From positions 190,316 to 254,315 of the forward strand of contig JBMFJZ010000001.1 in the NCBI GenBank assembly GCA_049973045.1: DNA of 64,000 nt, given 5' to 3'. Both the position numbers and the translations under genes were made by a program. Shown one piece after another: positions 36,517 to 51,263 of this stretch (positions are counted from its first letter, which is position 1; each line of letters begins with the position of its first letter). The DNA comes from Bacteroidota bacterium (GTDB taxonomy: Bacteria; Bacteroidota; Ignavibacteria; 0-14-0-80-59-12). The notes under the pieces were generated by a model, which had not been told where the DNA came from, made no database searches, and saw nothing but the letters and a program-made list of their open reading frames with translations.

Positions 36517-38898
36517 TCATTTTATTAGCAACATTTTCCTCGATTCGGAATAACTTCCTGCAATCAGCCGTACTATGTAAACTCCACTGGGTAGACTGGA
36601 GCCATTGAACTGGGTCGTGTAGAAGCCTGGTGTGAGTTCTCTATCTATCAGGACAGCCACTTCCTGCCCGAGCACATCATAAACACGGAGAGATACTTTT
36701 ACCGCCGATGGCGGCACAAGTGCCTGCGAACCTATTGAAAACTCGATCGTCGTAGTCGGGTTAAATGGGTTCGGATAGTTTTGATACAGATGATAACCTT
36801 CAGCAATAGGAGGAGTTTCCACGACGCCGGTGGTTGAGCGTGTCTTAAATCGCCAAACCTCTGACCATTTGCTCGAACCGTAGGCGTTTATTGCAGCAAC
36901 CCTCCATGCATAGACTGTGCTTACCTGAAGAGAATCTTTTGTGAACTTGTAAGTCGTATCAGCTACCAGCACTGTATCGAGGATTGGTGCGGCGAAATCG
37001 ATGCTCCTGGAAACCTGAAGCCTATAGTTTAATGCGGCTGCCGATGGATGCCATATAAATGTTGGCTTGATCGAGATTTCTGTAGACAGATTGTTTGGAG
37101 AAGCAAGGAGTGGGGTCCTCGGAAACGCCGTGGTGTAATTCCATGTGTCACTGAACTGACCCGATCCACCTGCATTATTAGCTGCGACTCTCCAATGATA
37201 TTTCTGCAGACCCTCCATTCCAGTTATAAGTTTCAAAGTGTCTCTATATGCAAGTTCATCCACCAGAAGGTTACTTGCAAAGCTTGAATCCTGCGAGACT
37301 TGAACTCGATACGAAGCGGTTAGATACGAGCTGAACCAGTGTAGCACAACAGTATCGCGCTCATTCTCAGAACCATTTGCAGGTCCAGCTAAAAGTGGCG
37401 GCTGTGGCGCAGAGATCGTTACAGTGTTGCTCGATGAGCTTTCGTTATAATTGCGGTCAACAGCCGTAACGATGTAAGAATATGGACCTTTCCCTGGCGG
37501 GGTAGGAGGGGGAGTGCTCCGAGTTCCCTCAACTGAGATGATGTTTCGAGCGTCTGCGAGTTCGTCCGGAGTGATGTTTGAATGATCAAATCGGTAGATG
37601 ACGTAACGTGTAGCTGTATCCCCATCAATTGCAGGAACTGGAAGATCCCACCTGAGAATTGGTGGAGCATTTCCAGCTTGTGCATATTGTAGATTTTGTG
37701 GAGGATTAGGTGCAATGGAATCTTTCCATGCCATTTGGGGAAGAAGGGAGGGATAGCGATAGTAAACGAGCTTCAGTGAATCAGCGAAATTTCCATCGTT
37801 ACCGGTTATGTTCAAAGCTCTGAAGAAAATGCTTCCACCTACCTTTGCATTTGCTCTATTCTGCCTGATCTGCTGTTCAATTTCTCCGGGTCCCCAATTC
37901 GGGATTCTATATGCAGCTTGTCCCACGTATAAGTGTCTCCCATTCAGTTGCTCCGCCCACCATGGCATCAATTTGCCATAATCCTGATTGCCTCCATTGG
38001 GCCAATAAAGCTGCGGTGCGATGTAATCGATCGTTTTTGCATTAAGCCAGGCAAGCGCGTCAGCATACAGGACATTGTAAGCATCAAGTCCAATAATTCC
38101 CGGCGGAATTCCGTTTTTCCATATCCCGAACGGGGAGATTCCAAATTTCACCCATGGCTTGATTGCATTTGTGCTATCGTGCACTTGTTTGATCAACAGG
38201 TTAATGTTATCGCGTCGCCAATCTCCTCGATCTGTGAATCCGCGATTATAATGAGCGAAAGTTGAATCGTCTTCATTTGTAATTTGATTGGGGGGGTAGG
38301 GATAAAAATAATCGTCAAAGTGCACACCATCCACATCGTATCTTCGAACGACATCCATGATTACTGACGTAACATAATCTCTAACCTGTGGAAGTCCTGG
38401 GTCAAGTATCTTGAGCGTACCGAAGGTCAATATCCAATCTGGATGCTTGACAGAAACGTGATTGGGGTCGAGCTGATAGCTTCCAACACTTCTAACAGCT
38501 CTATATGGATTAAACCATGCATGGAGCTCCATGCCGCGTTTATGCGTCTCCTCTATAGCAAACTGGAGCGGATCATAGTATGGAGAAGGAGGCTGTCCCT
38601 GCTTTCCCGTTAGCCAGTATGACCATGGCTCAAGTGTCGATTGATAGAATGCATCACATTCAGGGCGAATCTGAAAAATCACCGCATTTATGCCGGCGTT
38701 TTTGAGCTTGTCAAGTAGTGTTACCAGTTCATTTTTTTGTTGATATGCTGGGAGTCCTCGTTGAGAAGGCCAGTCGAGATTAGTGACTGTCGCAATCCAT
38801 GCTCCGCGAAATTCACGCTTGGGCGGAGCGGAGGTTTGAGAACTTATGTTAGATACAGCAAATATCAGAAGTAGTGACAAGGAGTTCCTAAGACGCAT
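36517..38898 (-). CDS. Glycoside hydrolase family-10-like (GHL10/YngK-type) protein with Fn3-like domains and T9SS CTD
   Basis: N-terminal EFRGAWIATVTNLDWPS is the GHL10 hallmark; central Fn3-like repeats; C-terminal HLYQNYPNPFNPTTTIEF. Confidence 0.75.
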   Translation of the reverse strand: MRLRNSLSLLLIFAVSNISSQTSAPPKREFRGAWIATVTNLDWPSQRGLPAYQQKNELVTLLDKLKNAGINAVIFQIRPECDAFYQSTLEPWSYWLTGKQGQPPSPYYDPLQFAIEETHKRGMELHAWFNPYRAVRSVGSYQLDPNHVSVKHPDWILTFGTLKILDPGLPQVRDYVTSVIMDVVRRYDVDGVHFDDYFYPYPPNQITNEDDSTFAHYNRGFTDRGDWRRDNINLLIKQVHDSTNAIKPWVKFGISPFGIWKNGIPPGIIGLDAYNVLYADALAWLNAKTIDYIAPQLYWPNGGNQDYGKLMPWWAEQLNGRHLYVGQAAYRIPNWGPGEIEQQIRQNRANAKVGGSIFFRALNITGNDGNFADSLKLVYYRYPSLLPQMAWKDSIAPNPPQNLQYAQAGNAPPILRWDLPVPAIDGDTATRYVIYRFDHSNITPDELADARNIISVEGTRSTPPPTPPGKGPYSYIVTAVDRNYNESSSSNTVTISAPQPPLLAGPANGSENERDTVVLHWFSSYLTASYRVQVSQDSSFASNLLVDELAYRDTLKLITGMEGLQKYHWRVAANNAGGSGQFSDTWNYTTAFPRTPLLASPNNLSTEISIKPTFIWHPSAAALNYRLQVSRSIDFAAPILDTVLVADTTYKFTKDSLQVSTVYAWRVAAINAYGSSKWSEVWRFKTRSTTGVVETPPIAEGYHLYQNYPNPFNPTTTIEFSIGSQALVPPSAVKVSLRVYDVLGQEVAVLIDRELTPGFYTTQFNGSSLPSGVYIVRLIAGSYSESRKMLLIK

Positions 38899-39181: not shown

Positions 39182-39221
39182 AAAAAGGGCGCTTGCAAGC
39201 TCAAAACTCACAAACGCCCTT
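39182..39221 (-). terminator. Putative Rho-independent terminator for the minus-strand gene ending at 39263
   Basis: On the minus strand, GC-rich stem AAGGGCG...CGCCCTT followed by TTTTTGTT (complement of the plus-strand A-run at 39182-39186). Confidence 0.45.
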
Positions 39222-39262
39222 CATAAATTTCCAGCATGACTACGTAACTAACCGAGATTCAA

Positions 39263-40549
39263 TCACTTCATCAGAATCATCTTCTTCGTCAAATGGGTCC
39301 CTTCAGGTGCATCCAGTGTGTAAATGTAAACGCCCGAAGGCAAATTGCCGGCATTGAATGTCACCGAATGATACCCAGCAGATTTGTAGCCGTCAACTAA
39401 CGTGGCAACTTCTCTGCCGAGCACATCGTAGACTCTCAATGTAACCTTACCGGAATTCTTCAGAGCGAAGTCGATCTTCGTCGAGGGGTTGAACGGATTC
39501 GGATAGTTCTGAGAGAGCTCATATGCGACCGGGACTTCACCTTGTTCCCTAACTCCTACAGAGGGTGTACGGACGAACATCTGGACCGGGGTAACAGTGC
39601 TAATATTAAACGCAGCAACGTAGACAGTATCCCCTGTGGGGCTGAAGGCTATTCCTCTCGGCCGTGGATCGAGTGAAAGGTCACCCTGCCACTTAATGCT
39701 GTCGACGATCGTTTTAGTGGCAAGGTCATATGCATACCAGGCATAGGGGCTGTATGGTGGATCGGGCAATCCGGAAGTTGTGTTTCCTGAGCCTACCCAC
39801 ATCCACCCTGTCTTTGGATCCCAAGCCATCGTCTCAACGACGAACTGAGTTAAGATAGAATCCTGCAAGACGTATGGACCGAGCGACCCGTTGTCGCTAT
39901 GGTAGACGTAGACCTTTCTCAGGCTATAGCGTGGCACATAAACGTCGTTTCCATTCTTGGATACAAGGATGTCGCGTCCGTAGCCATCCACAGAACTGGC
40001 GACGTTGCCGGCAGGAGAGAAGTCGGGGTTAAAAACTGCTACTGCACCGCCTGGGAGCACGGGTGCGAGGAAAACCTCCCCCAATGAATCATCAGCAACG
40101 CCGGCAATAGACTTTGTGTACCCTGAGATGGGGTTCATGACCCGGTTCATCCCCTGCCCGGTCTTGTAATTGATCCTCCAGAGTCGAGTGCTCCATTTGA
40201 CAGAAAGAATGTTCCCTTGGTAATCTGTTCTCATCCCGTAGCCAGCACCGTTTAGTGTATCGGTGATGCCGCCTGCGCTCAGCATTTTGATTGGTGAGAA
40301 TGGAGCCGGCGTCCCGTCTGGATAGAACACATAGATTGCACCGGTCTTCACTCCAGGAGCCAGACTGTCGTTGGATCCGCTGTATGATTGTATCCATACT
40401 TTCCCTTCCGGATCAACTGCGATACCGTTGTTAACCCCTGAAGGGAGTTTAAAACTGGTATCCGGGAAAGCTTTTACAAATTGCCACTGCGCAATGGCAA
40501 AAGGAGTGGCGACAATCAATAGAATCAAGATAAGAGCAAGTTTTTTCAT
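39263..40549 (-). CDS. Secreted beta-propeller-like protein with T9SS CTD
   Basis: Signal peptide MKKLALILILLIVATPFAIAQ; start at ATG 40549 preceded by GGAGGT; C-terminal LSQNYPNPFNPSTKIDF. Confidence 0.7.
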   Translation of the reverse strand: MKKLALILILLIVATPFAIAQWQFVKAFPDTSFKLPSGVNNGIAVDPEGKVWIQSYSGSNDSLAPGVKTGAIYVFYPDGTPAPFSPIKMLSAGGITDTLNGAGYGMRTDYQGNILSVKWSTRLWRINYKTGQGMNRVMNPISGYTKSIAGVADDSLGEVFLAPVLPGGAVAVFNPDFSPAGNVASSVDGYGRDILVSKNGNDVYVPRYSLRKVYVYHSDNGSLGPYVLQDSILTQFVVETMAWDPKTGWMWVGSGNTTSGLPDPPYSPYAWYAYDLATKTIVDSIKWQGDLSLDPRPRGIAFSPTGDTVYVAAFNISTVTPVQMFVRTPSVGVREQGEVPVAYELSQNYPNPFNPSTKIDFALKNSGKVTLRVYDVLGREVATLVDGYKSAGYHSVTFNAGNLPSGVYIYTLDAPEGTHLTKKMILMK

Positions 40550-40689
40550 TCCTGACCTCCGTTCGACTAAGTTTAATGGTTGAATAACGTGAGCAATTTT
40601 CTCGACGCTCAACTTGTGAAACTTCTAAGGGAGCCCCTTGCATCACCTCCTTCAATGGCGATTTCTCATATAACAATGACCTCTATTTG

Positions 40690-41907
40690 TTATTGTGTTC
40701 CGTAATAAGGAGCGCCGCTCTTCTTCGTGTCGATTCTCAGTAGTTTCCCAGCGCCGGTGCTGGCAAAGAGTGAACCCCCACTTCCCCAGGCAAAAATCTT
40801 GCACGAAGGGGAAAGGGTTGCAGTATACGCTGTATATGGTGTTTCATACGTTCCATTAGGATGAACGATCACGAGGAAGACACCTGTAGCATCGTTCCCA
40901 ATATAAAGATCCCCTTCTGAAGAGAAAGTAATTGCCAGTGCGGATGGTGTGGTTCCGTAGACACCGGAGAAATCGAAATAGACCTCTGGAGTTCCCAAGC
41001 TATCAGGAAGAATCCGAGCACGCCAAACTTTTTCAACTGAATCCTTCTGAGCTGCGAAGTAAAGATAATTGTTAAAAACTCGTAGGGAATGAATATTGGC
41101 TGCAAAAGGAAAAGTTTTGACCGATTTATCCGGCTTTATGAGGTAAATAAAATTATTGTTTCCACCAGCCCAAACATTTTTACTTTGGTCAAAGTCAAAG
41201 TCGTATATCTGGACTCCAACGGGGAAGGCAACCCATACTTGAGCAGGGCTTCCTCCACCCGGTGCAAACCGATACATTGCTCGGATATTTCTTGCTGCGT
41301 ACAGATAACCACCCGGGCCGAATTTAAGTGATGTCCATCCGACAGCACCAGAAGTTCTCGGTGCGTAGCTCGTTCTCAGGCCATCTGGAGTGAGCTTATC
41401 GATCCCATTGTCAGACCCGCTGGCAACAATTGAGGCATACAGAATGCCCGATGCATCCGTCGCAAGGCCAAGAACGGTCTCACTTGGCAGGAAACTCCCG
41501 AATGGGGCAACAGCTGCTTTTAGCTTGTAACGATACGGCTCACTGAAAAGCTCTGCGCCAATAACAGATACCCTGATCTGTACGCTATCCCCGATGACAA
41601 CCGGGGACTGGAGAACAAGCTGAGTTGAAGTCGCGCTGATAATCTTGGCAATCCCTGCATTAAAGAAGACAATGTCCTCCTGTGGATTCGGCGAAAAGTT
41701 TCGTCCGGTTATTATAATCGTATCCACAGCCGCAAGGGCACTATCAGGTGGGAAAACAGTGTCGATAACAGGTTGCGGCTTGCTTTGCCAATTCGGGTCA
41801 TACAGGCTGGGAGCGCTTTCATACTTGCAGCCGATCATTGCCGTCAGAGAGAAGATCGTGAGCAACGATGACACGAGAAGGAACTTAGTTTCAAGTGTGT
41901 TCTTCAT
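40690..41907 (-). CDS. Lipoprotein, IPT/TIG-like N-domain plus beta-propeller-like region (hypothetical)
   Basis: Signal peptide with lipobox (LTAMIGCKYE); no T9SS CTD. Confidence 0.55.
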   Translation of the reverse strand: MKNTLETKFLLVSSLLTIFSLTAMIGCKYESAPSLYDPNWQSKPQPVIDTVFPPDSALAAVDTIIITGRNFSPNPQEDIVFFNAGIAKIISATSTQLVLQSPVVIGDSVQIRVSVIGAELFSEPYRYKLKAAVAPFGSFLPSETVLGLATDASGILYASIVASGSDNGIDKLTPDGLRTSYAPRTSGAVGWTSLKFGPGGYLYAARNIRAMYRFAPGGGSPAQVWVAFPVGVQIYDFDFDQSKNVWAGGNNNFIYLIKPDKSVKTFPFAANIHSLRVFNNYLYFAAQKDSVEKVWRARILPDSLGTPEVYFDFSGVYGTTPSALAITFSSEGDLYIGNDATGVFLVIVHPNGTYETPYTAYTATLSPSCKIFAWGSGGSLFASTGAGKLLRIDTKKSGAPYYGTQ

Positions 41908-41956
41908 GGCACATTCCATATTTTAGAGTTCAAAGAGTATTATTCCATGTGCTATT

Positions 41957-42967
41957 TCAAAGCGAGAAATGAAATCCGAGTCGATGGACATTTGCAAACG
42001 TTTTAAACGGCGTAAAAGAATAGTCAAATCCTAAGGTAGTCCCTGCAATTTCTTTTTGCAAACCTATACCCGCGGTGAATCCATACTCATCGTTATTGAA
42101 CATATATCCAGCACGCAGCATAACAATCTGTGCAAATCGGTATTCTGCGCCAATGTTGACCTGCTCAGGATAATCGCGCGGATGAGTTGCATCGACGGAA
42201 AGAAGGAGTGAATGTATATATTTGTCGACGTCGGTAAGATCCAGTACGTCCATCGCAAACCCGATCCTGAAAATAAGTGGTAGCTGGAATGACTCCTGTC
42301 GGTATTTCAACTCGCGAGCGAAATTGCGCACGCTCATCCCAAAGGTAAGACTTTTGAATCCGGTTTTGTATATAATTCCGAAATCAAAAGAGGGGACATT
42401 CAACTTATTGTCAACTCTGATCAGATTTCCGGCAGAGTCCAATCCTACTGCGCTCATTCCGAGTGATTGGTAGACGAAGTTGACGTTTCCCCCGACTGCA
42501 AACCTGTCGCTCAATGCACGGGCATATCCTACACCTACAGCAAGTGCTGTCGGCTTAAAAGTACCGACGTCAAGGAATCCCTGCTCATTGTTTGCACGGA
42601 TTGTTTCCTGAAGCTCTCCATAATCTACAGAACGAAGTGTAATGCCGAAAACGCCGTAATCTCCATGAAACGGGCTGAACGCGATGCTGGCGAAGACGTG
42701 GTTGATGTCAGCAATCCAGTTTACGCGACCGAAAGATATGTCCGCAAAGCTACCCAATCTCGCCATCCCAGCAGGATTGTAGAACATCGCCGTTGATGTT
42801 CCCTCTATGGCAGTGACCGCTTCGCCAATGGCTGCTATTCGAGGGTCAGGACCGACGCTAATAAATTTCATGCCGGTTTGCGCAAGCTTCTGCTGTCCAC
42901 ATGCAAAACTTCTTGCGATTGTAAACAAAAGGAACATGCTTGATAAGAAAATAATAAACCTCTTCAT
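41957..42967 (-). CDS. PorV/PorQ-like outer-membrane beta-barrel protein (T9SS-associated family)
   Basis: Signal peptide MKRFIIFLSSMFLLFTIARSFA; FYNPAGMA motif and alternating amphipathic strands. Start chosen at ATG 42967 (RBS AAGGA). Family assignment from memory. Confidence 0.5.
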   Translation of the reverse strand: MKRFIIFLSSMFLLFTIARSFACGQQKLAQTGMKFISVGPDPRIAAIGEAVTAIEGTSTAMFYNPAGMARLGSFADISFGRVNWIADINHVFASIAFSPFHGDYGVFGITLRSVDYGELQETIRANNEQGFLDVGTFKPTALAVGVGYARALSDRFAVGGNVNFVYQSLGMSAVGLDSAGNLIRVDNKLNVPSFDFGIIYKTGFKSLTFGMSVRNFARELKYRQESFQLPLIFRIGFAMDVLDLTDVDKYIHSLLLSVDATHPRDYPEQVNIGAEYRFAQIVMLRAGYMFNNDEYGFTAGIGLQKEIAGTTLGFDYSFTPFKTFANVHRLGFHFSL

Positions 42968-42995
42968 GGTCATTGTCCTTGATCGTTTGAGACTT

Positions 42996-45053
42996 TCATC
43001 TGATGACGACAAACTTTCGTATGGCCCTTTCGCCAGTGGGCGTCTCAATAACAACGATGTACACCCCACTCACAATGATCTGATTATACGATGTCGTTAG
43101 ATCCCAGTATTCATCACCGCTGCCATTGGTATGTTCGATTGTCTTAATGAGTTCTCCGAGCTCAGTGTAAATTTTGATAGTGCATTCGCCAGGGATATTC
43201 AGAAAACCGATCTTATTAGGCTCATTTGGGTAGAGAAGACGATTGGGGTCAGCAGCAATGTTGTACGGGTTCGGAACAACCCGTATGGCGTAGAGTGAGC
43301 TTCCCGGTGGCCTCAGGAGATACGCTGGGTCATAGGACTGAGTATAATAACGACCGCTGACCAATCCTCCATCTCCAACAGAAACGATGTAGTAATAATG
43401 AGCAACTCCACGCACAACAGAGGTGTCCCTGTAACTGTTCTCGGTCGGCTGGGCTTCATAAATCAAACGGTAGGCGCTATCATAACGTGCCACAGCTCTG
43501 TAAATTCTAAAGCCCCTGAGCGTAGGGTCATTAGGGATATCCCAGGTGAGAGTAATGCGATCGCCGCCGGAGGTAACATTAAATGATGAGGGTGGCAACG
43601 GTGGCTGAGGGATGTTATAGCCAGAGTTGTAGTTTGCTATCGCACGTCTGAAAGTCTGGAACAGAGAATCTCGCCCCGTGTACACCCATTCGTTCTTTGT
43701 TTTCTGCACACCTTTGTAAGTAATGGGTGCCGTATTATTCCCTCCACTTGCCTTATACGCTCTGCCAATCTCAATGCAGGCTTCACGGTCAAGACCCGCT
43801 GCTGCCTCAGCCATCACAATGTGGATACTCTGACCCGGTCCAAGACGATAAGGTCCGTATCCATTAGCAATGGAGTAGCCACCTGTTGTTCCCAGAGACG
43901 GGTCGCCTCCAGGACCGACTTTGTCGGCGTGGCGTGGAGACATGTGCCCTGATGCCATCCACGCATATTCATTTTGCATTTTCGGGATGTTGTATTGATC
44001 GTTCTGGGAATTCAGTGGGTCATCGGAGCTAACGTACATCGTAGTGCTTGGCTGGTTAGGGTCATCTGTTGTGTCCGTCGGAGATCGGTCGGCGTGAATG
44101 GTCACAACGCCAACAAACTGCGCTGCGCCTAACCTGCCTGTAGTATCAAATTTGTCCACGTATCCATACGGGTCTGGTTCCCAGATAGGTCCTCCGATGT
44201 TATCGTACTTGGTAAAAGGTGGATATTTGCCATGCCACGAATATTGTGCGCGAATATCATTGTCTTTATTCCCGGGAAAGAATGTTGTAGAGGGATTCAA
44301 GCCGTCACCACGGGCGTCGTTCATTGTATTGATTCCCCATCCGGTAGCGTTGCCAAATACGTATCGGGTCTGTCTGTTTACCGCATAACGGTACTGAAAG
44401 AAAATGTAGAGGCTGTCGAGAGTTTGATTAGGCAGCTCGATCTCCGGGTCAGCATCTATGTTTCCGGTATTTGTGAACGTGTAATCGTAAATGATGTAGT
44501 TATCATTGTACTGCTGACTGAATGCAAGTATCTTCCTTGTCATCGTCAAGCCTATCGATGTGTTGACGACGTTGTAGATCATTCGGTCAGCTTTCAACGT
44601 TGGGTCGACCGCATCATTGTCATTTGGCTTGCTATAAGAGAGGTTTCCGTCTACAAAGACCCGAGGTGGATCGAAGCGACTGATCGTCTTGAATTCGATG
44701 GGGAAGAACTCACCAACGCCTGAAACCCTTGGTCCAACGTGCACCACTTTTGCAGGATAAAACCTCCCTTCTGCATCAGTGTAATTTTTTACGCCTATCC
44801 AGAGCCCTTTTGCCGCCTCCATATCCTGATACGGATAAATAGCTGGCCATTGCAAGCCGTCCTGTTGGACCTTCACTCTCCCTTCCTCGATTTCGCACCC
44901 CATATTTGAATACCAACTTTGCAGCGAACCAACCGCCATCCATTTTGTGGCAAACTGTGCTTGAGCCGAGGATGAGATTAAGAGGAGTAAAGTTATGAAG
45001 AGTAAAGCAAATCGGCTTACTGTTGTGTGTCGCTGATATGAACCCAGAATCAT
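42996..45053 (-). CDS. Large secreted protein with Fn3-like domain and variant C-terminal sorting-type domain
   Basis: Signal peptide; C-terminal VVPNPYNIAADP...GVYIVVIETPTGERAIRKFVVIR resembles a T9SS CTD but lacks the canonical NYPNPFN. Confidence 0.6.
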   Translation of the reverse strand: MILGSYQRHTTVSRFALLFITLLLLISSSAQAQFATKWMAVGSLQSWYSNMGCEIEEGRVKVQQDGLQWPAIYPYQDMEAAKGLWIGVKNYTDAEGRFYPAKVVHVGPRVSGVGEFFPIEFKTISRFDPPRVFVDGNLSYSKPNDNDAVDPTLKADRMIYNVVNTSIGLTMTRKILAFSQQYNDNYIIYDYTFTNTGNIDADPEIELPNQTLDSLYIFFQYRYAVNRQTRYVFGNATGWGINTMNDARGDGLNPSTTFFPGNKDNDIRAQYSWHGKYPPFTKYDNIGGPIWEPDPYGYVDKFDTTGRLGAAQFVGVVTIHADRSPTDTTDDPNQPSTTMYVSSDDPLNSQNDQYNIPKMQNEYAWMASGHMSPRHADKVGPGGDPSLGTTGGYSIANGYGPYRLGPGQSIHIVMAEAAAGLDREACIEIGRAYKASGGNNTAPITYKGVQKTKNEWVYTGRDSLFQTFRRAIANYNSGYNIPQPPLPPSSFNVTSGGDRITLTWDIPNDPTLRGFRIYRAVARYDSAYRLIYEAQPTENSYRDTSVVRGVAHYYYIVSVGDGGLVSGRYYTQSYDPAYLLRPPGSSLYAIRVVPNPYNIAADPNRLLYPNEPNKIGFLNIPGECTIKIYTELGELIKTIEHTNGSGDEYWDLTTSYNQIIVSGVYIVVIETPTGERAIRKFVVIR

Positions 45054-45090
45054 TTCTTCCTCGCCATGGTTAAGTAATGTAATGGACTTT

Positions 45091-48000
45091 CTATGGGATA
45101 TCGTACGAAACTCTGATGCCCCAGAATATATTTCGTGGATTTAGAAATGCGAGCTGGTAAAGGTTTGGCATATCGATGTACGGTTTCTCATCGCTCCTGT
45201 AGTCTCCGGGTTTATCATTACCGGGTGTGTTTGGATACCCCAGCTTTTGATTTTGTTGATCGCCGGCAATTTCAGCAGGAAGATGCAACGACATCATATA
45301 CGCCTGGAAGTCCTTGGAATCGTAAAAGCCGATGAACGGATACATATACTTGATGTTGAACACGTTGTATACATCTGCAAAGACTTCGAGGTTGGCGCCT
45401 GCAATCTTGAAAAGCTTGCTGATACGCAGGTCAAAATTTATGTAGTCCTTCCACTGAATATTATACTGAACTCCCGGGATGTAGGCACCTCCCGTCCATG
45501 TGAAGTATGTTCCTGCCTGCCAGGAGCCGAGGAGGTTTAGGTGCCAGCCGGAAAGCGGGCGTATCACACCGAGCGTTGGTCCGAAGTCATATGGTGTGAA
45601 GAAATCAAGATTAAGCCTTGCATATGGTCTTGGCACCGGCTTTGTTTGGTACAAATCGCTGTAATTAGTCCGCATATATTGTCGCATGTCAGCGGGGCTT
45701 TGATAGTATGTTTGATAGCCAAATCTGCCGTACGTTGAGACCATATACGTATAATTCACGAAACCTTGCAGCCAGTTTCCGCGCGTTTTTGAGAGTGTTA
45801 CTTCGAATCCTCTGATGTCCCTATATAAATTGCTTGTGCTCAGGGAGTAATTCACTTTGGTATCGCTGCTTATGTAGCGTGTGCTGGTACGTTCCTGTGA
45901 TACATCTTTGTAATATGCAGCAATATGAATCAGGAACTGATTGAACAGCGATTGCTCATAGCCAAGCTCATATGCCACGGTTTTGGGGAGCGGGGCATTT
46001 GGATCCGCCATCCAGGTAACAGCGTTATTGTCTGAAAATCGGCGGATAAGGTACAGGTCATCAGGGGTCGGCATCTGTCGGAAATGCCCATAGTTAAAGT
46101 ACAGCTTTGAATTTTCCGTTATTGGGAATGAGACCCCGAGGCGGGGGCTGAGTGTGATGATACGTTTCGTCGGTTCATGCTGCAGAAGGGTATCTAGTCC
46201 CAAGGAGTATTCCCCCGAGAGTGCGGGGTCATACGGCGTGAACTTGTACCAGTATCCGCCAGCGTAAGAGTAATCAAGTCGAAGTCCTACGTTCGCTATC
46301 ATTCCTTCGAATTCGAGTTTATCCTGCGCGTAGAGTGCGGCTCGTGTTGGATACGTATGCCAGTGAGACCAAGAACGGCCGCTCGGTAGATAGGCATCGA
46401 CTGATGCGTAACTGACATTATTATCGGTGTAAACAAACTCAAAACCAGCCTTAACCTGGTTATAGCGGTCGAGCTGGCTGGTGATATCAAACCTTGCCTC
46501 CCAGACGGTAACTTTACTGCTATCGCGGGAATTACTCATTCCTACGCTCATCCTCATCCCATCGATCGCATAAGATGGTTGAGGCCAGAATCCAAACGGT
46601 GCTTCATCGACGTAGTAGTAGTTTCCGAAGCGGTAAATTCTTGAAGTGTCCCGAAGTCTACCGGGATTTGTATTATACGCAGATCGAAACGCACGCAGCG
46701 AAGCCTCATAGAATGTCGATGAGCTCAGAACATGTGATAATTTTCCTCCCAGCATGTTGTAAGTGACAGTACTTGGTGCCCAGTAGTCGTACGTAAACAT
46801 ACGGGTGTCAATATAACTGACCTGGGAGAAAGCTTCTGCGATACTAACCGATGAATTGAATATCCCGGGCAATCCAGCATTGTTGTCGTTTGTCCCACTC
46901 TGTTGGCCTGTCAACCCTTCGAGCATTAATTTCATACCTTTGCCAACGTCGGATGTTAGTTTCAACTGGAAACTATAATCTTCGTAGCTATCTTTTGAAA
47001 GAGGAACAAAGTACATCGTCCTCGTTTGTCTGTACGAAGTAAAGAACCGGAGATCGCCTAACATTTTTCCTATCCCCGGAACTGGGCCACCAAAGCTTGC
47101 ATCAACATCGTAATCGGGTTTGGCGATCTCAAATTGTTTCCGATGTTGCCAGAGCCAGAGTCTCTGAGCCGCCGTGGGTGTCAGAAACTTTGTCGAGTCT
47201 CCACTTTGGAGAGACTTCTGTGCAATTGCGATCCATCCTTCGAATTCCGGGTATTGTTTTTGCGTGTATGCATCCCACGCACCATTCTTTGTCCCTGTCC
47301 AGCAAACAGCTGGATCGAGATAAGGACGCACCCAATAGAAATCAAGTGAGTTCAATGGGGATCCGAAATGTTTTGGTCCGGGAGGTCGGTAGCGTGCGAT
47401 CAAACCGACAGTATAACGGTCGGTGCTACCTTCCCTCGTCACAATGTTGATGACGCCCGAACGAATATTCCCATATTCGGCATTGAACCCGCCAGTCTGA
47501 ATTTGAATGTCTTTGACCGCGGTGTAACTGATGCTCGTAAACGGAGTATTGTTTCTTTCGTCACGTAGAGTAAGTCCATCAAGCATGAACGCGGTCTGGT
47601 CGCTTGTACCACCGCGTATTGTTAAGCCCTGGATGCCAGCTTGTAAGCCTATAGCAAATGTCACGCTAGTTGTGGGCAAAGGCTGGATCTGCTCAATGCT
47701 TAAATTGGTCGTGCTCGCTGAAACGTCCTTCTCGATAACGGGCCGTGTCGCCACAACTGTGACCTCCCCCGTAGTGATGGTAGCTTCACTCAGCGAGAAG
47801 TTCACTGTCGTTGTTTGATCGATGTTTACGCGAACGCCAGAAATTGTGGAAGGTGCATACCCTACTAAAGAAGCTTTTAGACGATAGGTACCGGGAGGCA
47901 CACTGAGAATAACGAAGTAACCGTCAACGTTTGTAGAGGCACCAAGCCTCGTTCCCTCAACTATCACGTTGACGCCAACTAACTTTTCACCTGTTTGAGC

Positions 48001-48099
48001 ATCTCTAACAGTTCCATCAATTTTCCCAGTTGTTCCTGCAAAAGCTAAAGTTGCTACAAATAAAAGCGTGACAACAAAAGAGACAGTAACCACTTTCAT
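45091..48099 (-). CDS. TonB-dependent receptor (SusC-like) with N-terminal carboxypeptidase-regulatory-like domain
   Basis: Signal peptide; CarbopepD_reg-like segment; plug-domain motifs (FNAEYGN, SGVINIVT); ~1000 aa. Start at ATG 48099 with RBS AGGAG. C-terminus ends ...SYDIP rather than the usual aromatic residue. Confidence 0.75.
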   Translation of the reverse strand: MKVVTVSFVVTLLFVATLAFAGTTGKIDGTVRDAQTGEKLVGVNVIVEGTRLGASTNVDGYFVILSVPPGTYRLKASLVGYAPSTISGVRVNIDQTTTVNFSLSEATITTGEVTVVATRPVIEKDVSASTTNLSIEQIQPLPTTSVTFAIGLQAGIQGLTIRGGTSDQTAFMLDGLTLRDERNNTPFTSISYTAVKDIQIQTGGFNAEYGNIRSGVINIVTREGSTDRYTVGLIARYRPPGPKHFGSPLNSLDFYWVRPYLDPAVCWTGTKNGAWDAYTQKQYPEFEGWIAIAQKSLQSGDSTKFLTPTAAQRLWLWQHRKQFEIAKPDYDVDASFGGPVPGIGKMLGDLRFFTSYRQTRTMYFVPLSKDSYEDYSFQLKLTSDVGKGMKLMLEGLTGQQSGTNDNNAGLPGIFNSSVSIAEAFSQVSYIDTRMFTYDYWAPSTVTYNMLGGKLSHVLSSSTFYEASLRAFRSAYNTNPGRLRDTSRIYRFGNYYYVDEAPFGFWPQPSYAIDGMRMSVGMSNSRDSSKVTVWEARFDITSQLDRYNQVKAGFEFVYTDNNVSYASVDAYLPSGRSWSHWHTYPTRAALYAQDKLEFEGMIANVGLRLDYSYAGGYWYKFTPYDPALSGEYSLGLDTLLQHEPTKRIITLSPRLGVSFPITENSKLYFNYGHFRQMPTPDDLYLIRRFSDNNAVTWMADPNAPLPKTVAYELGYEQSLFNQFLIHIAAYYKDVSQERTSTRYISSDTKVNYSLSTSNLYRDIRGFEVTLSKTRGNWLQGFVNYTYMVSTYGRFGYQTYYQSPADMRQYMRTNYSDLYQTKPVPRPYARLNLDFFTPYDFGPTLGVIRPLSGWHLNLLGSWQAGTYFTWTGGAYIPGVQYNIQWKDYINFDLRISKLFKIAGANLEVFADVYNVFNIKYMYPFIGFYDSKDFQAYMMSLHLPAEIAGDQQNQKLGYPNTPGNDKPGDYRSDEKPYIDMPNLYQLAFLNPRNIFWGIRVSYDIP

Positions 48100-48511
48100 G
48101 AGCTGCTTCTCCTCTTTTACAGAGTGAAACAAGAAAGAAATGATGATGTGCTATTAGCGGTTTGCTGAGACGCGCGATATCGCACCGTCGGTTGAGCATC
48201 AAAATCCTCCGATTAGGAATATACAAAAAATACGTAGTGATGTCAAGCTTTTGGGACGACTTTGCTGGCTCAACTTGAATAATCAAGCAGAATCCTCATC
48301 GACCCCAGACACCGCACCCCTGTTTTCAGTTATTGATTTTTTGGCGCTGTATCTACTTAGTTAGGGGCATGTAGCGCTCCAATCAACAGGATTTTGCACC
48401 CTTGAAACAAACCTTGCATCTCTTTCAAGAATTTTGCAGAATAATGGCGGCGCTCTGTATCGCCTCTCCTAAAGTTTGGCGAGTTTTCATTACATTTGAT
48501 GGGATAGTACT

Positions 48512-51121
48512 ATGAAGCTTTCTCAGAAGGTCGCTTCCTTATTTGCTTTTATTCTGGTGTTTATTTTTCCATGGATCAGCAATTCACAAGACGTTTCGCT
48601 TCTGCGCTCAGCTTTTGAATCTGCAAGTAAAGAATTCGATGTTCCAGTCGAACTTCTTAAAGGCATTGCATTTGTTGAATCGCGATGGACGCAGCTTCAG
48701 CCTCATGCAGATTCCTCCTCGGCAAACTGTACAGGGATGCCCCCAGCCTACGGGGTCATGGGTCTGCGGGATGATGAATACTTTGGACATTCACTTGTCG
48801 AAGCAGCGAAATTGATTCATCGTTCGCCTGAAGAACTGAAGCACAATCCTGCTGAGAATATTCGTGGGGCAGCCGCACTATTGAAGAAGCTTGCAGCTAC
48901 TCATTTGAAGAAAGCTGCCCCTCAGCTTGAGTCATGGAATGACGTTGTCGCTGCCTATAGTGGGATCCCTCAGCAGGCTATTGCACGACTTTATGCACAG
49001 GACGTGTATCGGGTTCTTGCCACGGGCTGGCATTCAGAACGGATTGATATTGAGCCTCACGTCATTCAGATGAATCTCAACTCGGATTCCCTCATACGAG
49101 CAATGGGAGGAGAACCACTTCCGCCATCGCTGTTGTCTGATGACTATCCACTGGCAGTGTGGGATCCAAGTCAGAATTTCAGCTCGCGTGGGGGGGAAGC
49201 AATTACCCGGGTCATTATCCATGACACAGAAGGATCGTTTGCCGGTGCTCTCTCATGGCTAAAAAATCCACAGGCTCAGGCAAGTGCTCATTACATCATC
49301 CGCAGCTCTGATGGATATATTGTTCAACTGGTGCGCGAGCGAGACAAGGCATGGCATGCAAGGTGCTGGAATCCATTTACGGTTGGAATCGAGCATGAAG
49401 GGTATGTAAATAATCCTTCATTTTTTACTGACGTCATGTATCGCTCATCGGCTGCACTCACACGCAGCATCACAAGGAAGTATGGTATTCCACAGGATTT
49501 GTATCACATCATTGGGCATGGCGTCTGGACGCAAAGGAGCATCTGGTCGGTAATTCGTCACGACCAGGATTTTGCACGATATGACCCCAATAGCACCGAC
49601 TATAGTTCATGCAATGATCATACAGACCCAGGCCAGTACTGGAACTGGCAATACTATCTGGCTCTTGTCAAAGCGGATAGTGCACCACCGCGCATCTTAG
49701 CTATGGCTCCCTCTCCCGGAACCATTGGATACAAGGCATACAAACCTCTCGTGATTACATTTGATAAGCCGATGATTCAACAGCGGACGGATTCAGCGCT
49801 TCACATAACTCCACCGATCCAGGGCTCGATCACCTGGTCAAACAATTATCAGACTATGACGTTCCGGCCTAATCAATTTTGGAATTTCTCGACTACGTAT
49901 ACCGTCATGGTTGATACAACGGCTCTGAGCATCGCAGGAATTTCAATCGATGGCAATGGAGATGGCACAGGGGGAGATCCCTTCATGGCACAGTTTACAA
50001 CCACTGCACCTGATATTACACCTCCACGTATAATCAGCGTATATCCATTGTGGGGGATGGATAATGTGTCAACATATACATCGATGCGAATTGTGTTTGA
50101 TGAGCCAGTGCAATGGTCTTCACTTGCTGGGCGCGTTTTGCTGTACGACGATAGCAGTCGTATAGTCGGTGTGACGGAGGCTCGAAGCGATACAGTGAAC
50201 GATTTCAATTACGTGACGTTCAGGCCTGCTGCTCCGCTTCGCTCCCACGCAGGGTATGCGATCAAACTTGGTGCTGGTATCAAGGACCTTTTCGGAAACG
50301 GAACGACAAATGATGAATGGATTTACTTTTTCACACAGAATGAATTTCTTCCTGGCGTGGTTGTTGATAGCTTTGAAACTCAAGCTGGTTGGCAACAGCC
50401 CATGGCGAGTCTCGCCACAGTGGGAGCTGATTCTGCCCGAACAAAATTTGCCATCTCAAATGAACGTGTCTATGCAGGACGTTATGCGGGTAAACTTTCA
50501 TACGCTTTTCTCTATGATAGCGGTGGGCTTGTGTGCGAACATAATGCTGCAGGGGTTCCTATCGAAGGAAGGTCAACGATTGGTGCATGGATTTATGGTG
50601 ACGCGAGTGGCAACACTCTGGAGTTATGGTTTTCACCCGGTGACACAAAGATTGTAATCGGTCCCTTAGTCTGGTTTGGCTGGCGGTACGTGAACGTTTT
50701 TGTAAGAGATGTGCCGGGAAACAGCCGCTCTTTAAGCAGCATCATCGTCCGGCAAGTGCCGGGAGCTTCGAAAGGCGGGGCTATTTTCATTGATGATCTT
50801 CAAGTCAATGGATTGATCTCGAAGGTGGAATCACAGCCGTTAGTTCCTGAACGAGCTTACCTCAATCAGAACTATCCAAACCCGTTCAATTCGTCCACGA
50901 TAATTTCATTTGGCTTACCGGAACCGGCAGCAGTAACGCTGAAAGTCTACGATGTTCTTGGGCGGGAGGTGGCGACACTGGTCAGCGGGAAAATAGCGGC
51001 TGGGACACATATGGTGACGTTCGATGCCTCCCATCTTCCGAGCGGTATTTATTTTTATCGCCTTGAGATGAACGGTGCAACTCACTTTGTTTCAATAAAG
51101 AAATTGGTTCTTTTAAGGTAA
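48512..51121 (+). CDS. Secreted N-acetylmuramoyl-L-alanine amidase (Amidase_2/PGRP-like) with Ig-like domains and T9SS CTD
   Basis: VIIHDTEGSFAGALSWL...AHYIIRSSDG...GIEHEGY amidase_2 motifs; SbsA/Big-like repeats; C-terminal LNQNYPNPFNSSTIISF. Confidence 0.75.
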   Translation: MKLSQKVASLFAFILVFIFPWISNSQDVSLLRSAFESASKEFDVPVELLKGIAFVESRWTQLQPHADSSSANCTGMPPAYGVMGLRDDEYFGHSLVEAAKLIHRSPEELKHNPAENIRGAAALLKKLAATHLKKAAPQLESWNDVVAAYSGIPQQAIARLYAQDVYRVLATGWHSERIDIEPHVIQMNLNSDSLIRAMGGEPLPPSLLSDDYPLAVWDPSQNFSSRGGEAITRVIIHDTEGSFAGALSWLKNPQAQASAHYIIRSSDGYIVQLVRERDKAWHARCWNPFTVGIEHEGYVNNPSFFTDVMYRSSAALTRSITRKYGIPQDLYHIIGHGVWTQRSIWSVIRHDQDFARYDPNSTDYSSCNDHTDPGQYWNWQYYLALVKADSAPPRILAMAPSPGTIGYKAYKPLVITFDKPMIQQRTDSALHITPPIQGSITWSNNYQTMTFRPNQFWNFSTTYTVMVDTTALSIAGISIDGNGDGTGGDPFMAQFTTTAPDITPPRIISVYPLWGMDNVSTYTSMRIVFDEPVQWSSLAGRVLLYDDSSRIVGVTEARSDTVNDFNYVTFRPAAPLRSHAGYAIKLGAGIKDLFGNGTTNDEWIYFFTQNEFLPGVVVDSFETQAGWQQPMASLATVGADSARTKFAISNERVYAGRYAGKLSYAFLYDSGGLVCEHNAAGVPIEGRSTIGAWIYGDASGNTLELWFSPGDTKIVIGPLVWFGWRYVNVFVRDVPGNSRSLSSIIVRQVPGASKGGAIFIDDLQVNGLISKVESQPLVPERAYLNQNYPNPFNSSTIISFGLPEPAAVTLKVYDVLGREVATLVSGKIAAGTHMVTFDASHLPSGIYFYRLEMNGATHFVSIKKLVLLR

Positions 51122-51263
51122 TACCACAATGAAAAACCGATTGTGGCTCTCTCTTGCTCTTCTCGTCTTCGCTTTTAGTGGCACCTGAGGCGCCATTTGG
51201 AGCCAACTTAAGCCAAAGCCTTATGAGCCTCTGGCTCAGAATGTACTGACACCATGTGTTACA

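What the first reader, a model, noticed from the sequence alone, without database searches (positions are those of the whole stretch)
41957..48099. TonB-dependent receptor + secreted Fn3 protein + PorV-like gene: non-SusD outer-membrane module next to T9SS cargo
A ~1000 aa SusC-like TonB-dependent receptor is followed on the same strand by a 685 aa secreted protein with a variant sorting-type C-terminus (not a SusD-like lipoprotein) and then a PorV/PorQ-family beta-barrel. In Bacteroidota, PorV-type proteins shuttle T9SS cargo and PorP/SprF-type proteins pair with specific adhesins, so this may be a dedicated cargo-plus-receptor unit or an unusual uptake system. The receptor's C-terminus (...SYDIP) lacks the usual terminal aromatic residue.
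Basis: partly seen in the sequence, partly recalled or inferred. Interest (0 to 1): 0.5.

Follow-up and report, generated by a model that had tools for sequence, protein, structure and literature searches.

The report
SusD-less uptake module with private PorV
This is a five-gene outer-membrane operon, kept in the same order in hundreds of Ignavibacteria-, Kryptonia-, KSB1-, Caldithrix- and Rhodothermus-like species, that joins a TonB-dependent importer to a secreted sugar-binding-type protein and that protein's own PorV-like barrel, and it probably scavenges bacterial cell-wall fragments.

Summary
On the minus strand lie a 1002-aa TonB-dependent transporter (48099..45091), a 685-aa secreted protein ending in a T9SS type-A sorting domain (45053..42996), and a 337-aa PorV/PorQ-family barrel (42970..41957).

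- **Barrel classification.** It passes NCBIfam PorV_fam (194.8 bits, cut-off 90). It fails the PorV, PorQ, PorP/SprF and FadL models.
- **Gene order.** In 80 loci from other species, the transporter lies directly upstream in 67/67 testable cases and the barrel directly downstream in 69/70.

The unit is larger than reported. It is a five-gene operon that continues with a TIG/β-propeller lipoprotein and a β-propeller T9SS cargo protein.

The 685-aa protein is mainly a galactose-mutarotase-like β-supersandwich, followed by Fn3 and the sorting domain. The transporter is a classical 22-strand TBDT with a SusC-type N-terminal domain, but it is not SusC/RagA and has no SusD partner.

Recurrent neighbours point to peptidoglycan fragments as substrate: a Cwp19-like GHL10 lytic transglycosylase, MurNAc-L-Ala amidases, NamZ, a YkfC-like peptidase and a dipeptide-epimerase-like enzyme.

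Ancient duplicates keep one barrel per transporter/cargo pair. No description was found in the searchable literature. Physical pairing and substrate remain inferred.

The parts
48218..48246 (-). Promoter-like site (TTGACA-17-TATATT, 11/12) upstream of the transporter gene
   Evidence: It is a consensus match only. No Rfam riboswitch lies in the 5' region.
45091..48099 (-). TonB-dependent transporter, 1002 aa: SusC-type N-terminal CarboxypepD_reg domain, putative TonB box EVTVVATRP, plug, 22-strand barrel
42996..45053 (-). X685: secreted 685-aa protein made of a galactose-mutarotase-like β-supersandwich (~35-480), Fn3 (~488-565) and a T9SS type-A sorting domain (~590-685)
41957..42970 (-). PorV/PorQ-family outer-membrane β-barrel, 337 aa, neither a PorV nor a PorQ orthologue
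   Evidence: NF033709 194.8 bits against cut-off 90. PorQ 92.5/220, PorV 84.8/250, PorP/SprF 38/90.55. Pfam Toluene_X 17.7/29.7. PDB PorV 6h3i E=0.003. Directly downstream of X685 in 69/70 loci, median gap 41 bp.
40690..41919 (-). Lipoprotein (…AMIGC lipobox) with an IPT/TIG domain and a β-propeller-like C-terminal part
   Evidence: Pfam TIG. Weak propeller hits in PDB. Follows the barrel gene in 59/66 loci.
39263..40612 (-). β-propeller-type protein with a canonical T9SS type-A sorting domain; last gene of the operon
   Evidence: Por_Secre_tail/TIGR04183. Follows the TIG gene in 52/56 loci.
39184..39222 (-). Strong intrinsic-terminator-like hairpin (18 pairs plus a T run) closing the five-gene operon
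36517..38898 (-). GHL10 (Cwp19-like) glycosidase / lytic-transglycosylase domain, Fn3-like repeats and a T9SS sorting domain
   Evidence: PF02638 256.7 bits. E=2.5e-96 to Cwp19 5oq2 over 353 residues. Cwp19 is an experimentally shown peptidoglycan lytic transglycosylase (PMC6016235). A GHL10 domain is present in 35/80 loci and 22/42 full-flank loci.
35777..36439 (-). 220-aa secreted protein of unknown family
   Evidence: No Pfam or NCBIfam hit. Same position in the 97%-identical strain.
34581..35780 (-). 399-aa T9SS cargo of unknown function
   Evidence: Por_Secre_tail/TIGR04183.
32013..34547 (-). NAGPA-type phosphodiester glycosidase with a T9SS sorting domain
   Evidence: PF09992 120 bits. 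TIGR04183. Not found in the other 80 loci.
48512..51121 (+). Divergently transcribed T9SS cargo: SLT lytic-transglycosylase domain, Amidase_2 (MurNAc-L-Ala amidase), Big_5 x2 and a sorting domain
   Evidence: In 12 other loci a protein on the same Big_5 + sorting-domain scaffold sits nearby; the one checked (L050) carries Amidase_3 instead.

Best explanation
This is the core of a conserved, SusD-independent outer-membrane nutrient-capture and import module found in FCB-group bacteria outside the well-studied Bacteroidia.

Proposed working (every step is inferred unless marked shown):
1. T9SS-secreted enzymes encoded beside the operon cut polymer outside the cell. These are a Cwp19-like GHL10 lytic transglycosylase and MurNAc-L-Ala amidases.
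2. X685, the 685-aa protein, is exported by the T9SS through its type-A sorting domain. It is handed to the PorV/PorQ-family barrel encoded 26 bp downstream of its stop codon.
3. That barrel stays bound to X685 as its private carrier and anchor. Known parallels are PorQ-PorZ, PorV-PorU and SprF-SprB.
4. X685 therefore displays its carbohydrate-binding-type β-supersandwich at the cell surface beside the transporter.
5. With the TIG/β-propeller lipoprotein and the β-propeller cargo protein, it captures fragments and feeds them to the TonB-dependent transporter, which imports them into the periplasm.

The most likely substrate is peptidoglycan-derived glycan or muropeptide.

Shown here: gene content, family and fold assignments, operon signals, near-invariant synteny, and co-duplication of the three core genes.

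Inferred: the barrel-cargo complex, its closeness to the transporter, and the substrate.
For: **Classification**
- The barrel passes PorV_fam and fails the PorV, PorQ, PorP/SprF and FadL models.
- X685 passes the T9SS type-A model. Its tail aligns motif-for-motif with five canonical tails in the window: PNPY/PNPF, (I/V)Y(T/D)xLG, SGVY, K..(V/L)(I/L)(R/K).

**Synteny**
- X685 relatives occur in 476 species-level genomes labelled Kryptoniota, Ignavibacteriota, KSB1, Calditrichia, Rhodothermales and others.
- Transporter upstream 67/67; barrel downstream 69/70; TIG lipoprotein next 59/66; propeller cargo next 52/56.
- Unsupervised clustering of all ORFs in the loci recovers exactly these five families as the top neighbours.

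**One barrel per pair**
- Ten genomes with two complete cassettes carry one barrel per cassette.
- Transporter, X685 and barrel each split into the same two types. Within-type identities between genomes are 59/54% (transporter), 60/55% (X685) and 53.5/52.5% (barrel); between types they are 45/44%, 38.5/38% and 48/46.5%.

**Fold**
- Natural fusions join it to BNR/sortilin propellers or β-helix domains, nearly always with a detectable sorting domain.

**Transporter**
- The model is a 22-strand TBDT.
- I read the conserved EVTVVATRP motif as a TonB box.

**Substrate**
- The window's GHL10 domain matches Cwp19 at E=2.5e-96. Cwp19 is a shown peptidoglycan lytic transglycosylase (PMC6016235).
- Amidase_2 + SLT in the window, and Amidase_3 on the same scaffold in L050, the one related locus checked, look like a non-homologous swap that keeps the function.
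- NamZ, NlpC/P60 + YkfC-type SH3, an enolase-superfamily enzyme resembling dipeptide epimerases, NagX-like and NagC-like genes recur in the loci.

**Operon signals**: promoter-like site and strong terminator.

**Precedent**: sorting domains bind PorV loops, and carriers can remain as anchors (PMC10994853). A FadL/PorV-like barrel serves as a platform for a surface protein in BamG-BamH (PMC12578637).
Against: - No physical interaction was tested.
- X685's sorting domain is only slightly better conserved (61%) than ordinary sorting domains in the same loci (45-54%). Conservation therefore does not show that the tail is retained.
- Peptidoglycan-related genes lie within ±10 kb in only 24/42 full-flank loci. 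At least nine Rhodothermales-labelled loci (L052, L058, L064, L066 and L074-L076 among the full-flank ones, plus L048 and L059) show none.
- Another GHL10 protein has been reported to act on starch (title of PMC9967864).
- X685 is unusually conserved (about 60% identity across lineages) and has many invariant Asp/His/Arg/Glu/Trp residues. That would also fit an enzyme.
- The TIG/propeller lipoprotein, not X685, could be the transporter's lid, as in BtuB-BtuG.
- No inner-membrane importer or cytoplasmic muropeptide pathway is encoded in this window.
Confidence: 0.5

Rival explanations
1. The PorV-like barrel is only a local, extra copy of the general T9SS shuttle. It helps export all the sorting-domain cargo of the locus (X685, the propeller protein, GHL10, the amidase). 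It forms no lasting complex and has no specific link to the transporter. X685 is then released or LPS-anchored like ordinary cargo.
For: - Six sorting-domain proteins cluster here.
- PorV is a general type-A carrier (PMC10994853).
- Other PorV/PorQ-family genes sit beside other secreted proteins in related loci: L004 2676-3692 and L031 2199-3212.
- X685's sorting domain is not dramatically better conserved than ordinary ones.
Against: - The barrel is glued to X685 and the transporter: 69/70 adjacency with a median gap of 41 bp. The enzyme cargo genes come and go.
- Duplicated cassettes each keep their own barrel, which co-diverges with its transporter and X685.
- It fails the PorV equivalog model, 84.8 bits against 250.
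Confidence: 0.2
2. X685 is a surface enzyme that processes the substrate before import (a glycan-cleaving, lyase-type or epimerase-type activity built on the supersandwich), rather than a passive binding protein. This can hold together with anchoring by the barrel.
For: - About 60% identity across distant lineages, with many invariant D/E/H/R/W/Y positions in the N-domain.
Against: - No sequence family or catalytic motif could be assigned.
- Invariant residues could equally serve ligand binding or protein interfaces.
Confidence: 0.22
3. The module imports something other than peptidoglycan fragments, for example chitin/GlcNAc oligomers, another amino-sugar polymer or α-glucan. The peptidoglycan-related neighbours would then be a lineage-specific add-on.
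For: - NagC-like ROK regulator and NagX-like acetyltransferase neighbours are typical of GlcNAc/chitin systems.
- 18/42 full-flank loci have no peptidoglycan-related gene within 10 kb.
- One GHL10 protein is reported as starch-active (title of PMC9967864).
- A second cassette type exists, which suggests substrate diversification.
Against: - The peptidoglycan-specific signals are independent of each other: Cwp19-like GHL10 at E=2.5e-96, two non-homologous MurNAc-L-Ala amidase domains on one scaffold, NamZ, and a YkfC-type peptidase. A dipeptide-epimerase-like enzyme is a further, weaker signal.
- Very high conservation of the core fits a chemically invariant substrate (inference).
Confidence: 0.3
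4. The module is not a nutrient importer. It is a cell-surface or adhesion apparatus in which a PorV-like carrier holds a T9SS protein, with the TonB-dependent barrel acting as an energised anchor or signal transducer. Alternatively, the barrel is a FadL-type channel for a small hydrophobic molecule.
For: - Carrier-anchored adhesins exist, such as SprF-SprB.
- The barrel has a weak FadL/Toluene_X resemblance, E=0.0013.
- The core is conserved like housekeeping machinery.
Against: - The transporter has a plug and what I read as a conserved TonB box, and no signalling (STN-type) N-terminal domain.
- The neighbours are hydrolases and catabolic enzymes, not motility genes.
- The FadL model is far below its cut-off, 17.7 against 29.7, while PorV_fam passes.
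Confidence: 0.08

Closest known systems
SusCD-type polysaccharide utilisation systems ("utilisomes") of Bacteroidia
   Same: - A TonB-dependent transporter with a carboxypeptidase-regulatory-like N-terminal domain.
- Operon partners that are surface-exposed glycan-binding-type proteins, plus secreted degradative enzymes.
- Likely the same capture-then-import logic.
   Different: - No SusD/RagB gene.
- The transporter fails TIGR04056 (63.9 against 368) and is structurally nearer BtuB/Cir than SusC.
- The invariant partner is a β-supersandwich T9SS cargo plus a PorV-family barrel, not a TPR lipoprotein lid.
- The core is highly conserved, about 55-60% identity across lineages, whereas to my knowledge PULs are very diverse.
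T9SS carrier/anchor pairs: PorV-PorU, PorQ-PorZ (attachment complex) and SprF-SprB
   Same: - An outer-membrane barrel of the PorV/PorQ/PorP superfamily encoded next to a specific sorting-domain protein.
- The literature shows sorting domains bind the carrier's extracellular loops, and that carriers can stay attached as anchors (PMC10994853).
   Different: - The barrel is neither a PorV, a PorQ nor a PorP/SprF member by the curated models.
- X685's only resemblance to PorZ is in the shared sorting domain (17.9 bits against 260), and it gave no PorU (NF033707) hit at E<=0.01 in the same scan.
- The pair is always embedded in a TonB-dependent transporter operon, which is not described for any known carrier pair.
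TonB-dependent transporters with non-SusD surface lipoprotein partners in Bacteroides (BtuB-BtuG, XusA-XusB)
   Same: - The TIG/β-propeller lipoprotein here could play a BtuG-like lid role.
   Different: - Those partners are lipoproteins and need no T9SS or PorV-like barrel.
- Their substrates are vitamins or siderophores.
- No B12 or other riboswitch is present here.
BamG-BamH of the Bacteroidota BAM complex
   Same: A 14-strand FadL/PorV-like barrel used as a fixed attachment platform for a surface-exposed protein through its extracellular loops (PMC12578637).
   Different: - BamG binds BamA and lipoproteins, not sorting-domain cargo.
- BamG appeared only as a faint hit (29 bits against 250) for a different PorV-family paralogue in L031, not for this barrel.
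Peptidoglycan-scavenging and muropeptide-catabolic enzymes: Cwp19 (GHL10 lytic transglycosylase), NamZ exo-muramidase, B. subtilis YkfB/YkfC
   Same: Homologues or look-alikes of these enzymes recur beside the cassette. The window's GHL10 domain is about half identical to Cwp19 by eye from the alignment.
   Different: - In those organisms the enzymes act in autolysis or recycling, with no dedicated outer-membrane importer.
- Here they are T9SS-secreted and linked to a TonB-dependent transporter.
- That YkfB/YkfC act on murein peptides is from my own knowledge, not from a paper read here.

Membership tests
SusC/RagA TonB-linked outer membrane protein (TIGR04056) | Whole-protein score at or above the curated cut-off (368.25 bits) | tested here: not met
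   63.9 bits, matching only profile positions 2-128, the N-terminal domain.
SusC/RagA TonB-linked outer membrane protein (TIGR04056) | Adjacent SusD/RagB-family lipoprotein gene | tested here: not met
   The downstream gene has no Pfam hit and folds as a β-supersandwich + Fn3 + sorting domain. No SusD-family Pfam match was returned for any window ORF of at least 150 aa scanned.
SusC/RagA TonB-linked outer membrane protein (TIGR04056) | Carboxypeptidase-regulatory-like N-terminal extension before the TonB box and plug | tested here: met
   [not shown]
TonB-dependent transporter (generic) | Plug domain, TonB box and 22-strand barrel | tested here: met
   [not shown]
PorV/PorQ family (NF033709) | Score at or above 90 bits over the full-length profile | tested here: met
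   194.8 bits, profile positions 1-325 of 326.
T9SS shuttle PorV (NF033710 equivalog) | Score at or above 250 bits | tested here: not met
   84.8 bits. Pfam PorV 25.7 against 27. PDB PorV 6h3i only E=0.003.
T9SS PorQ (NF033711 equivalog) | Score at or above 220 bits | tested here: not met
   92.5 bits.
PorP/SprF family (TIGR03519) | Score at or above 90.55 bits | tested here: not met
   38 bits.
FadL/TodX (PF03349) | Score at or above 29.7 bits | tested here: not met
   17.7 bits.
T9SS type-A cargo (TIGR04183 sorting domain) | C-terminal domain passing the curated cut-off, plus an N-terminal signal peptide | tested here: met
   X685 scores 26.9 bits against 23 at residues 607-683. It aligns with five canonical tails of the window and carries a 12-residue insertion after PNPY. 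The signal peptide was read from the sequence. Pfam PF18962 did not report it.
T9SS type-A cargo (TIGR04183 sorting domain) | Actual T9SS-dependent export and the fate of the tail (cleaved or retained) | not testable with these tools
   Needs proteomics or mutants.
GHL10 / Cwp19-type peptidoglycan lytic transglycosylase (neighbouring gene 38898..36517) | GHL10 domain (PF02638) and close similarity to Cwp19 | tested here: met
   256.7 bits. E=2.5e-96 to 5oq2. Activity on peptidoglycan was not tested, and catalytic residues were not checked.
Carrier-cargo anchoring complex (PorQ-PorZ-like) | Stable physical complex between the barrel and the uncleaved sorting domain of its partner | not testable with these tools
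   Only genomic evidence is available: 69/70 adjacency and 1:1 co-duplication.

The most novel reading that the evidence does not exclude
A previously undescribed outer-membrane architecture, widespread in the non-Bacteroidia FCB lineages (at least 476 species). A distinct clade of PorV/PorQ-family barrels acts as a private, permanent carrier and anchor for one type-A T9SS protein, placing it beside a TonB-dependent transporter. This would make a T9SS-built, SusD-independent "utilisome" dedicated to harvesting peptidoglycan from other bacteria. It would mean that type-A cargo, like type-B cargo, can have dedicated carriers, and that T9SS and TonB-dependent import are structurally coupled.
Probability: 0.35. 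Interest if true: 0.8.

Novelty: new variant of a known kind. Interest (0 to 1): 0.62.

Why it matters
**T9SS biology.** PorV is treated as the general carrier for type-A cargo, and dedicated carriers are known only for type-B cargo. A conserved one-to-one PorV-family/cargo pair would extend the dedicated-carrier principle to type-A cargo.

**Nutrient uptake.** It would show how large FCB lineages that lack this kind of SusD partner build a surface capture device on a TonB-dependent transporter.

**Ecology.** Ignavibacteria, Kryptonia, KSB1, Calditrichia and Rhodothermales are common in sediments, hot springs and sludge. A dedicated, highly conserved peptidoglycan-harvesting system would give a concrete gene marker for bacterial necromass turnover.

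**Annotation.** The 685-aa family has at least 634 clusters at 50% identity. The named members seen here are mostly called 'hypothetical protein', with a few generic domain labels.

Tried and rejected
- **Sequence searches of X685.** Pfam gave nothing and PDB gave only a marginal Fn3 hit. Only fold comparison was informative.
- **Sorting-domain retention test.** I compared conservation of X685's tail with ordinary cargo tails. The result (61% against 45-54%) was not discriminating, so it is not used as evidence.
- **SLT/Amidase_2 as a conserved neighbour.** Domain-level tblastn found it in only one other locus. The 12-locus cluster shares the Big_5 + sorting-domain scaffold, and the member checked (L050) carries Amidase_3. 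The claim was narrowed accordingly.
- **NAGPA as a conserved neighbour.** It was found in none of the 80 loci and appears to be specific to this strain.
- **Riboswitch control** (B12, TPP and others). None was found.
- **Foldseek against AFDB.** The library was unavailable.
- **Literature.** Seven of the eight full-text searches looked for this cassette and none found it; the eighth was the GHL10 search. The Caldithrix and Melioribacter genome papers do not mention it. One search was spoiled because 'susc' also matches 'susceptibility'.
- **Rest of the window.** It holds housekeeping and glycosyltransferase genes, with no muropeptide permease or catabolic genes.

Full report
**1. What is in the sequence**

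The finding's three genes exist as described, all on the minus strand.

- **Transporter.** Its start is the ATG at 48099, preceded by AAGAGGAG, giving 1002 aa. An independent gene call in a 97%-identical strain also gives 1002 aa. It has a CarboxypepD_reg-like N-terminal domain and a Plug domain. The motif EVTVVATRP, which I read as the TonB box, is conserved in homologues.
- **X685.** The next gene (45053..42996) encodes a 685-aa protein with a signal peptide. Pfam finds nothing. NCBIfam's T9SS type-A sorting-domain model is passed at 26.9 bits against a cut-off of 23.
- **Barrel.** The third gene (42970..41957, 337 aa) passes NCBIfam PorV_fam at 194.8 bits against 90. It fails the equivalog models for PorV (84.8/250) and PorQ (92.5/220), the PorP/SprF model (38/90.55) and Pfam FadL (17.7/29.7).

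**2. The unit is a five-gene operon in a T9SS-cargo neighbourhood**

- Downstream on the same strand are a lipoprotein with an IPT/TIG domain and a propeller-like body (41919..40690), then a β-propeller-type protein with a canonical sorting domain (40612..39263).
- A strong promoter-like site (11/12 match) precedes the transporter. An 18-pair terminator hairpin follows the fifth gene. These are consensus matches only.
- Beyond it lie further genes: a GHL10 + Fn3 + sorting-domain protein, a 220-aa secreted protein, a 399-aa sorting-domain protein and a NAGPA phosphodiester glycosidase with a sorting domain.
- Divergently upstream is an SLT + Amidase_2 + Big_5 + sorting-domain protein.
- X685's tail aligns with the five canonical tails of these neighbours. 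It differs mainly by a 12-residue insertion after the PNPY motif.

**3. Conservation**

- X685 has more than 2281 homologues. Those listed are 55-73% identical over the full length, apart from a 97%-identical copy from a near-identical strain. Most named ones are called 'hypothetical protein'; a few carry generic domain labels.
- A scan of one genome per species found relatives in 476 genomes. The closest is a Candidatus Kryptoniota MAG at 74%. Others are labelled Ignavibacteriota, KSB1/Zhuqueibacter, Calditrichia, Rhodothermales and Zixibacteria. Some MAG labels, such as 'Cytophagia' or 'Synechococcus', are probably unreliable.
- In the 80 loci fetched:
  - the transporter is directly upstream on the same strand in 67/67 testable loci;
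  - the barrel is directly downstream in 69/70 (median gap 41 bp; L069 is the exception);
  - the TIG lipoprotein follows in 59/66;
  - the propeller cargo follows in 52/56.
- Blind all-against-all clustering of every ORF in these loci returns exactly these five families as the most widespread, followed by GHL10.

**4. One barrel per transporter/cargo pair**

About a dozen genomes carry a second, paralogous cassette, often in tandem. Each has its own barrel, placed either before the second transporter or after the second X685.

In the ten loci with two complete cassettes, all three proteins split into the same two types:

| Protein | Within type, between genomes (type 1 / type 2) | Between types (same genome / different genomes) |
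|---|---|---|
| Transporter | 59% / 54% | 45% / 44% |
| X685 | 60% / 55% | 38.5% / 38% |
| Barrel | 53.5% / 52.5% | 48% / 46.5% |

The trio was therefore duplicated as a unit long ago and kept as matched sets. This argues for a specific partnership rather than a generic shuttle that happens to lie nearby. The separation is weakest for the barrel.

**5. Folds**

  - weaker hits to GH174 fucanases, polysaccharide lyases and the YidC P1 domain.

  This is a carbohydrate-recognising fold that is occasionally catalytic.
- **X685 family breadth.** A profile search of 1.84 billion representatives finds 634 clusters at E<1e-30. Some longer members are fused to N-terminal BNR/sortilin-type propellers or to C-terminal right-handed β-helices; six of the seven checked hit the Por_Secre_tail model and the seventh hit only the related FlgD_ig model. 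The propeller fusions hint, Rosetta-stone style, that X685 works with the propeller proteins encoded separately in the operon.

**6. What is transported**

- The window's GHL10 domain matches C. difficile Cwp19 at E=2.5e-96 over 353 residues. Cwp19 was shown experimentally to be a peptidoglycan lytic transglycosylase, and that paper assigns this activity to the GHL10 domain (PMC6016235).
- A GHL10 gene lies in 35/80 loci and 22/42 loci with full flanks, mostly just after the operon on the same strand.
- The window's divergent neighbour carries SLT and Amidase_2 domains. In 12 other loci a related protein sits nearby on the same Big_5 + sorting-domain scaffold; the one examined (L050) carries Amidase_3. 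This looks like a non-homologous swap that keeps MurNAc-L-Ala amidase function.
- Other recurrent neighbours:
  - NamZ exo-β-N-acetylmuramidase: 5 of the 80 loci, including the KSB1 locus L009 first seen as L001;
  - NlpC/P60 with a YkfC-type SH3 domain: 9 loci;
  - an enolase-superfamily enzyme: 7-8 loci. Its best NCBIfam match is N-acetyl-D-Glu racemase DgcA, followed by muconate cycloisomerase and then L-Ala-D/L-Glu epimerases, all below cut-off;
  - a NagX-like acetyltransferase: 10 loci;
  - a NagC-like ROK regulator: 4 loci.
- Together these point to peptidoglycan or muropeptide harvesting.
- The evidence is contextual and incomplete. Of the 42 full-flank loci, 18 show no peptidoglycan-related gene within 10 kb. 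At least nine Rhodothermales-labelled loci show none: L052, L058, L064, L066 and L074-L076 among the full-flank ones, plus L048 and L059. A different GHL10 protein has been reported as starch-active.
- The unusually high conservation of the three core proteins would fit a chemically invariant substrate such as the glycan backbone of peptidoglycan. That is inference only.

**7. Proposed mechanism**

- Cryo-EM work on the T9SS shows that type-A sorting domains bind the extracellular loops of the carrier PorV inside the translocon. It also shows that the carriers of gliding adhesins remain attached as anchors (PMC10994853).
- In Bacteroidota BAM, a FadL/PorV-like barrel (BamG) is a fixed platform for a surface lipoprotein (PMC12578637).
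- By analogy, I propose that the cassette barrel carries X685 out of the translocon and stays bound to it. This would tether the supersandwich next to the transporter.
- X685, the TIG/propeller lipoprotein and the propeller cargo would then form a capture device feeding fragments released by the secreted lytic enzymes into the transporter.
- Either X685 or the lipoprotein could be the actual lid. The lipoprotein would resemble BtuG.
- None of the protein contacts was tested.

**8. Comparison with known systems, and novelty**

- In function the module resembles SusCD utilisomes and the BtuB-BtuG and XusA-XusB pairs. In its secretion logic it resembles PorQ-PorZ and SprF-SprB.
- It is not a member of the SusC/RagA, SusD, PorV, PorQ or PorP/SprF families by their curated models.
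- Seven full-text searches and two genome papers gave no description of the cassette. The library covers open-access papers only, so a description elsewhere cannot be excluded.
- I rate it a new variant of known kinds: TBDT-plus-surface-partner systems and T9SS carrier-cargo pairs. Interest is moderately high because of its breadth, its strict architecture and the testable link between T9SS and TonB-dependent import.

**9. Verdict**

- The mechanism is proposed at about 0.5 confidence.
- The peptidoglycan substrate is the weakest link, together with the untested barrel-cargo complex.

Noticed in passing
L004 15855-22079; L009, L010, L012, L015, L022, L042, L044, L045, L067 (coordinates): About a dozen genomes carry a second, paralogous cassette, often in tandem. 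Identities to the first are about 45% (transporter), 38% (X685) and 47% (barrel). The second barrel's position varies: before the second transporter or after the second X685. This may mean a second substrate.
   Followed up: partly
window 48512-51121 compared with L050 1629-4142 (and 11 similar loci): The divergent neighbour keeps a Big_5 x2 + sorting-domain scaffold but swaps its catalytic head. The window and L054 have SLT + Amidase_2. L050, the one member of the 12-locus cluster that was scanned, has Amidase_3 plus a CarboxypepD_reg-like domain. This is a non-homologous replacement with the same predicted MurNAc-L-Ala amidase function.
   Followed up: partly
L004 24-5465; L031 28-5587: Further PorV/PorQ-family genes (27-30% identical to the cassette barrel) lie between a large protein with no family hit (883 or 721 aa) and another sorting-domain protein (FG-GAP type, or GHL10). 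Private PorV-family barrels next to particular secreted proteins may be a general habit of these lineages.
   Followed up: partly
P0367, P0383, P0385 (N-terminal BNR/sortilin propellers); P0434, P0443, P0457 (C-terminal β-helix / PMP repeats): Longer relatives of X685 are fused to β-propeller or right-handed β-helix modules. Six of the seven checked hit the Por_Secre_tail model; P0443 hit only the related FlgD_ig model.
   Followed up: partly
window 32013-34547 (-): An NAGPA-type phosphodiester glycosidase with a T9SS sorting domain. It is absent from all 80 related loci. Speculatively, it could remove phosphodiester-linked wall polymers from peptidoglycan.
   Followed up: no
window ~51121-51653 (+); L084 3401-3925: A small gene between the amidase gene and the dehydrogenase gene is called in the sister strain as a 174-aa GerMN ('Germane') domain protein. 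In the window the listed ORF (51264-51653, GTG start) is probably cut short at its start.
   Followed up: no
window: signal peptides of the ORFs at 45053, 40612, 38898, 36439 (-) and 48512 (+): Read by eye, most predicted signal-peptidase I sites in this locus leave an N-terminal Gln (AQA/QF, AIA/QW, ISS/QT, AFA/QQ, SNS/QD). [quoted passage not shown] It may be worth checking in a Kryptoniota-like genome.
   Followed up: no
L069 2565-4643: This is the only locus where X685 has no PorV-like gene downstream (1 of 70 testable). No transporter hit was seen on this contig either, but only about 2.5 kb of upstream sequence is present, too little to test for one.
   Followed up: no
window 59004-59434 (+); 54303-54375 (+); 7746-7820 (-): A tmRNA gene (158.6 bits) and two tRNA genes.
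   Followed up: no
window 54559-55878 (+); 63020-63814 (+); 14654-15340 (+): A GWxTD-domain protein, a protein with three PASTA domains, and a Schlafen/AlbA_2-domain protein lie elsewhere in the window. No link to the cassette was seen.
   Followed up: no
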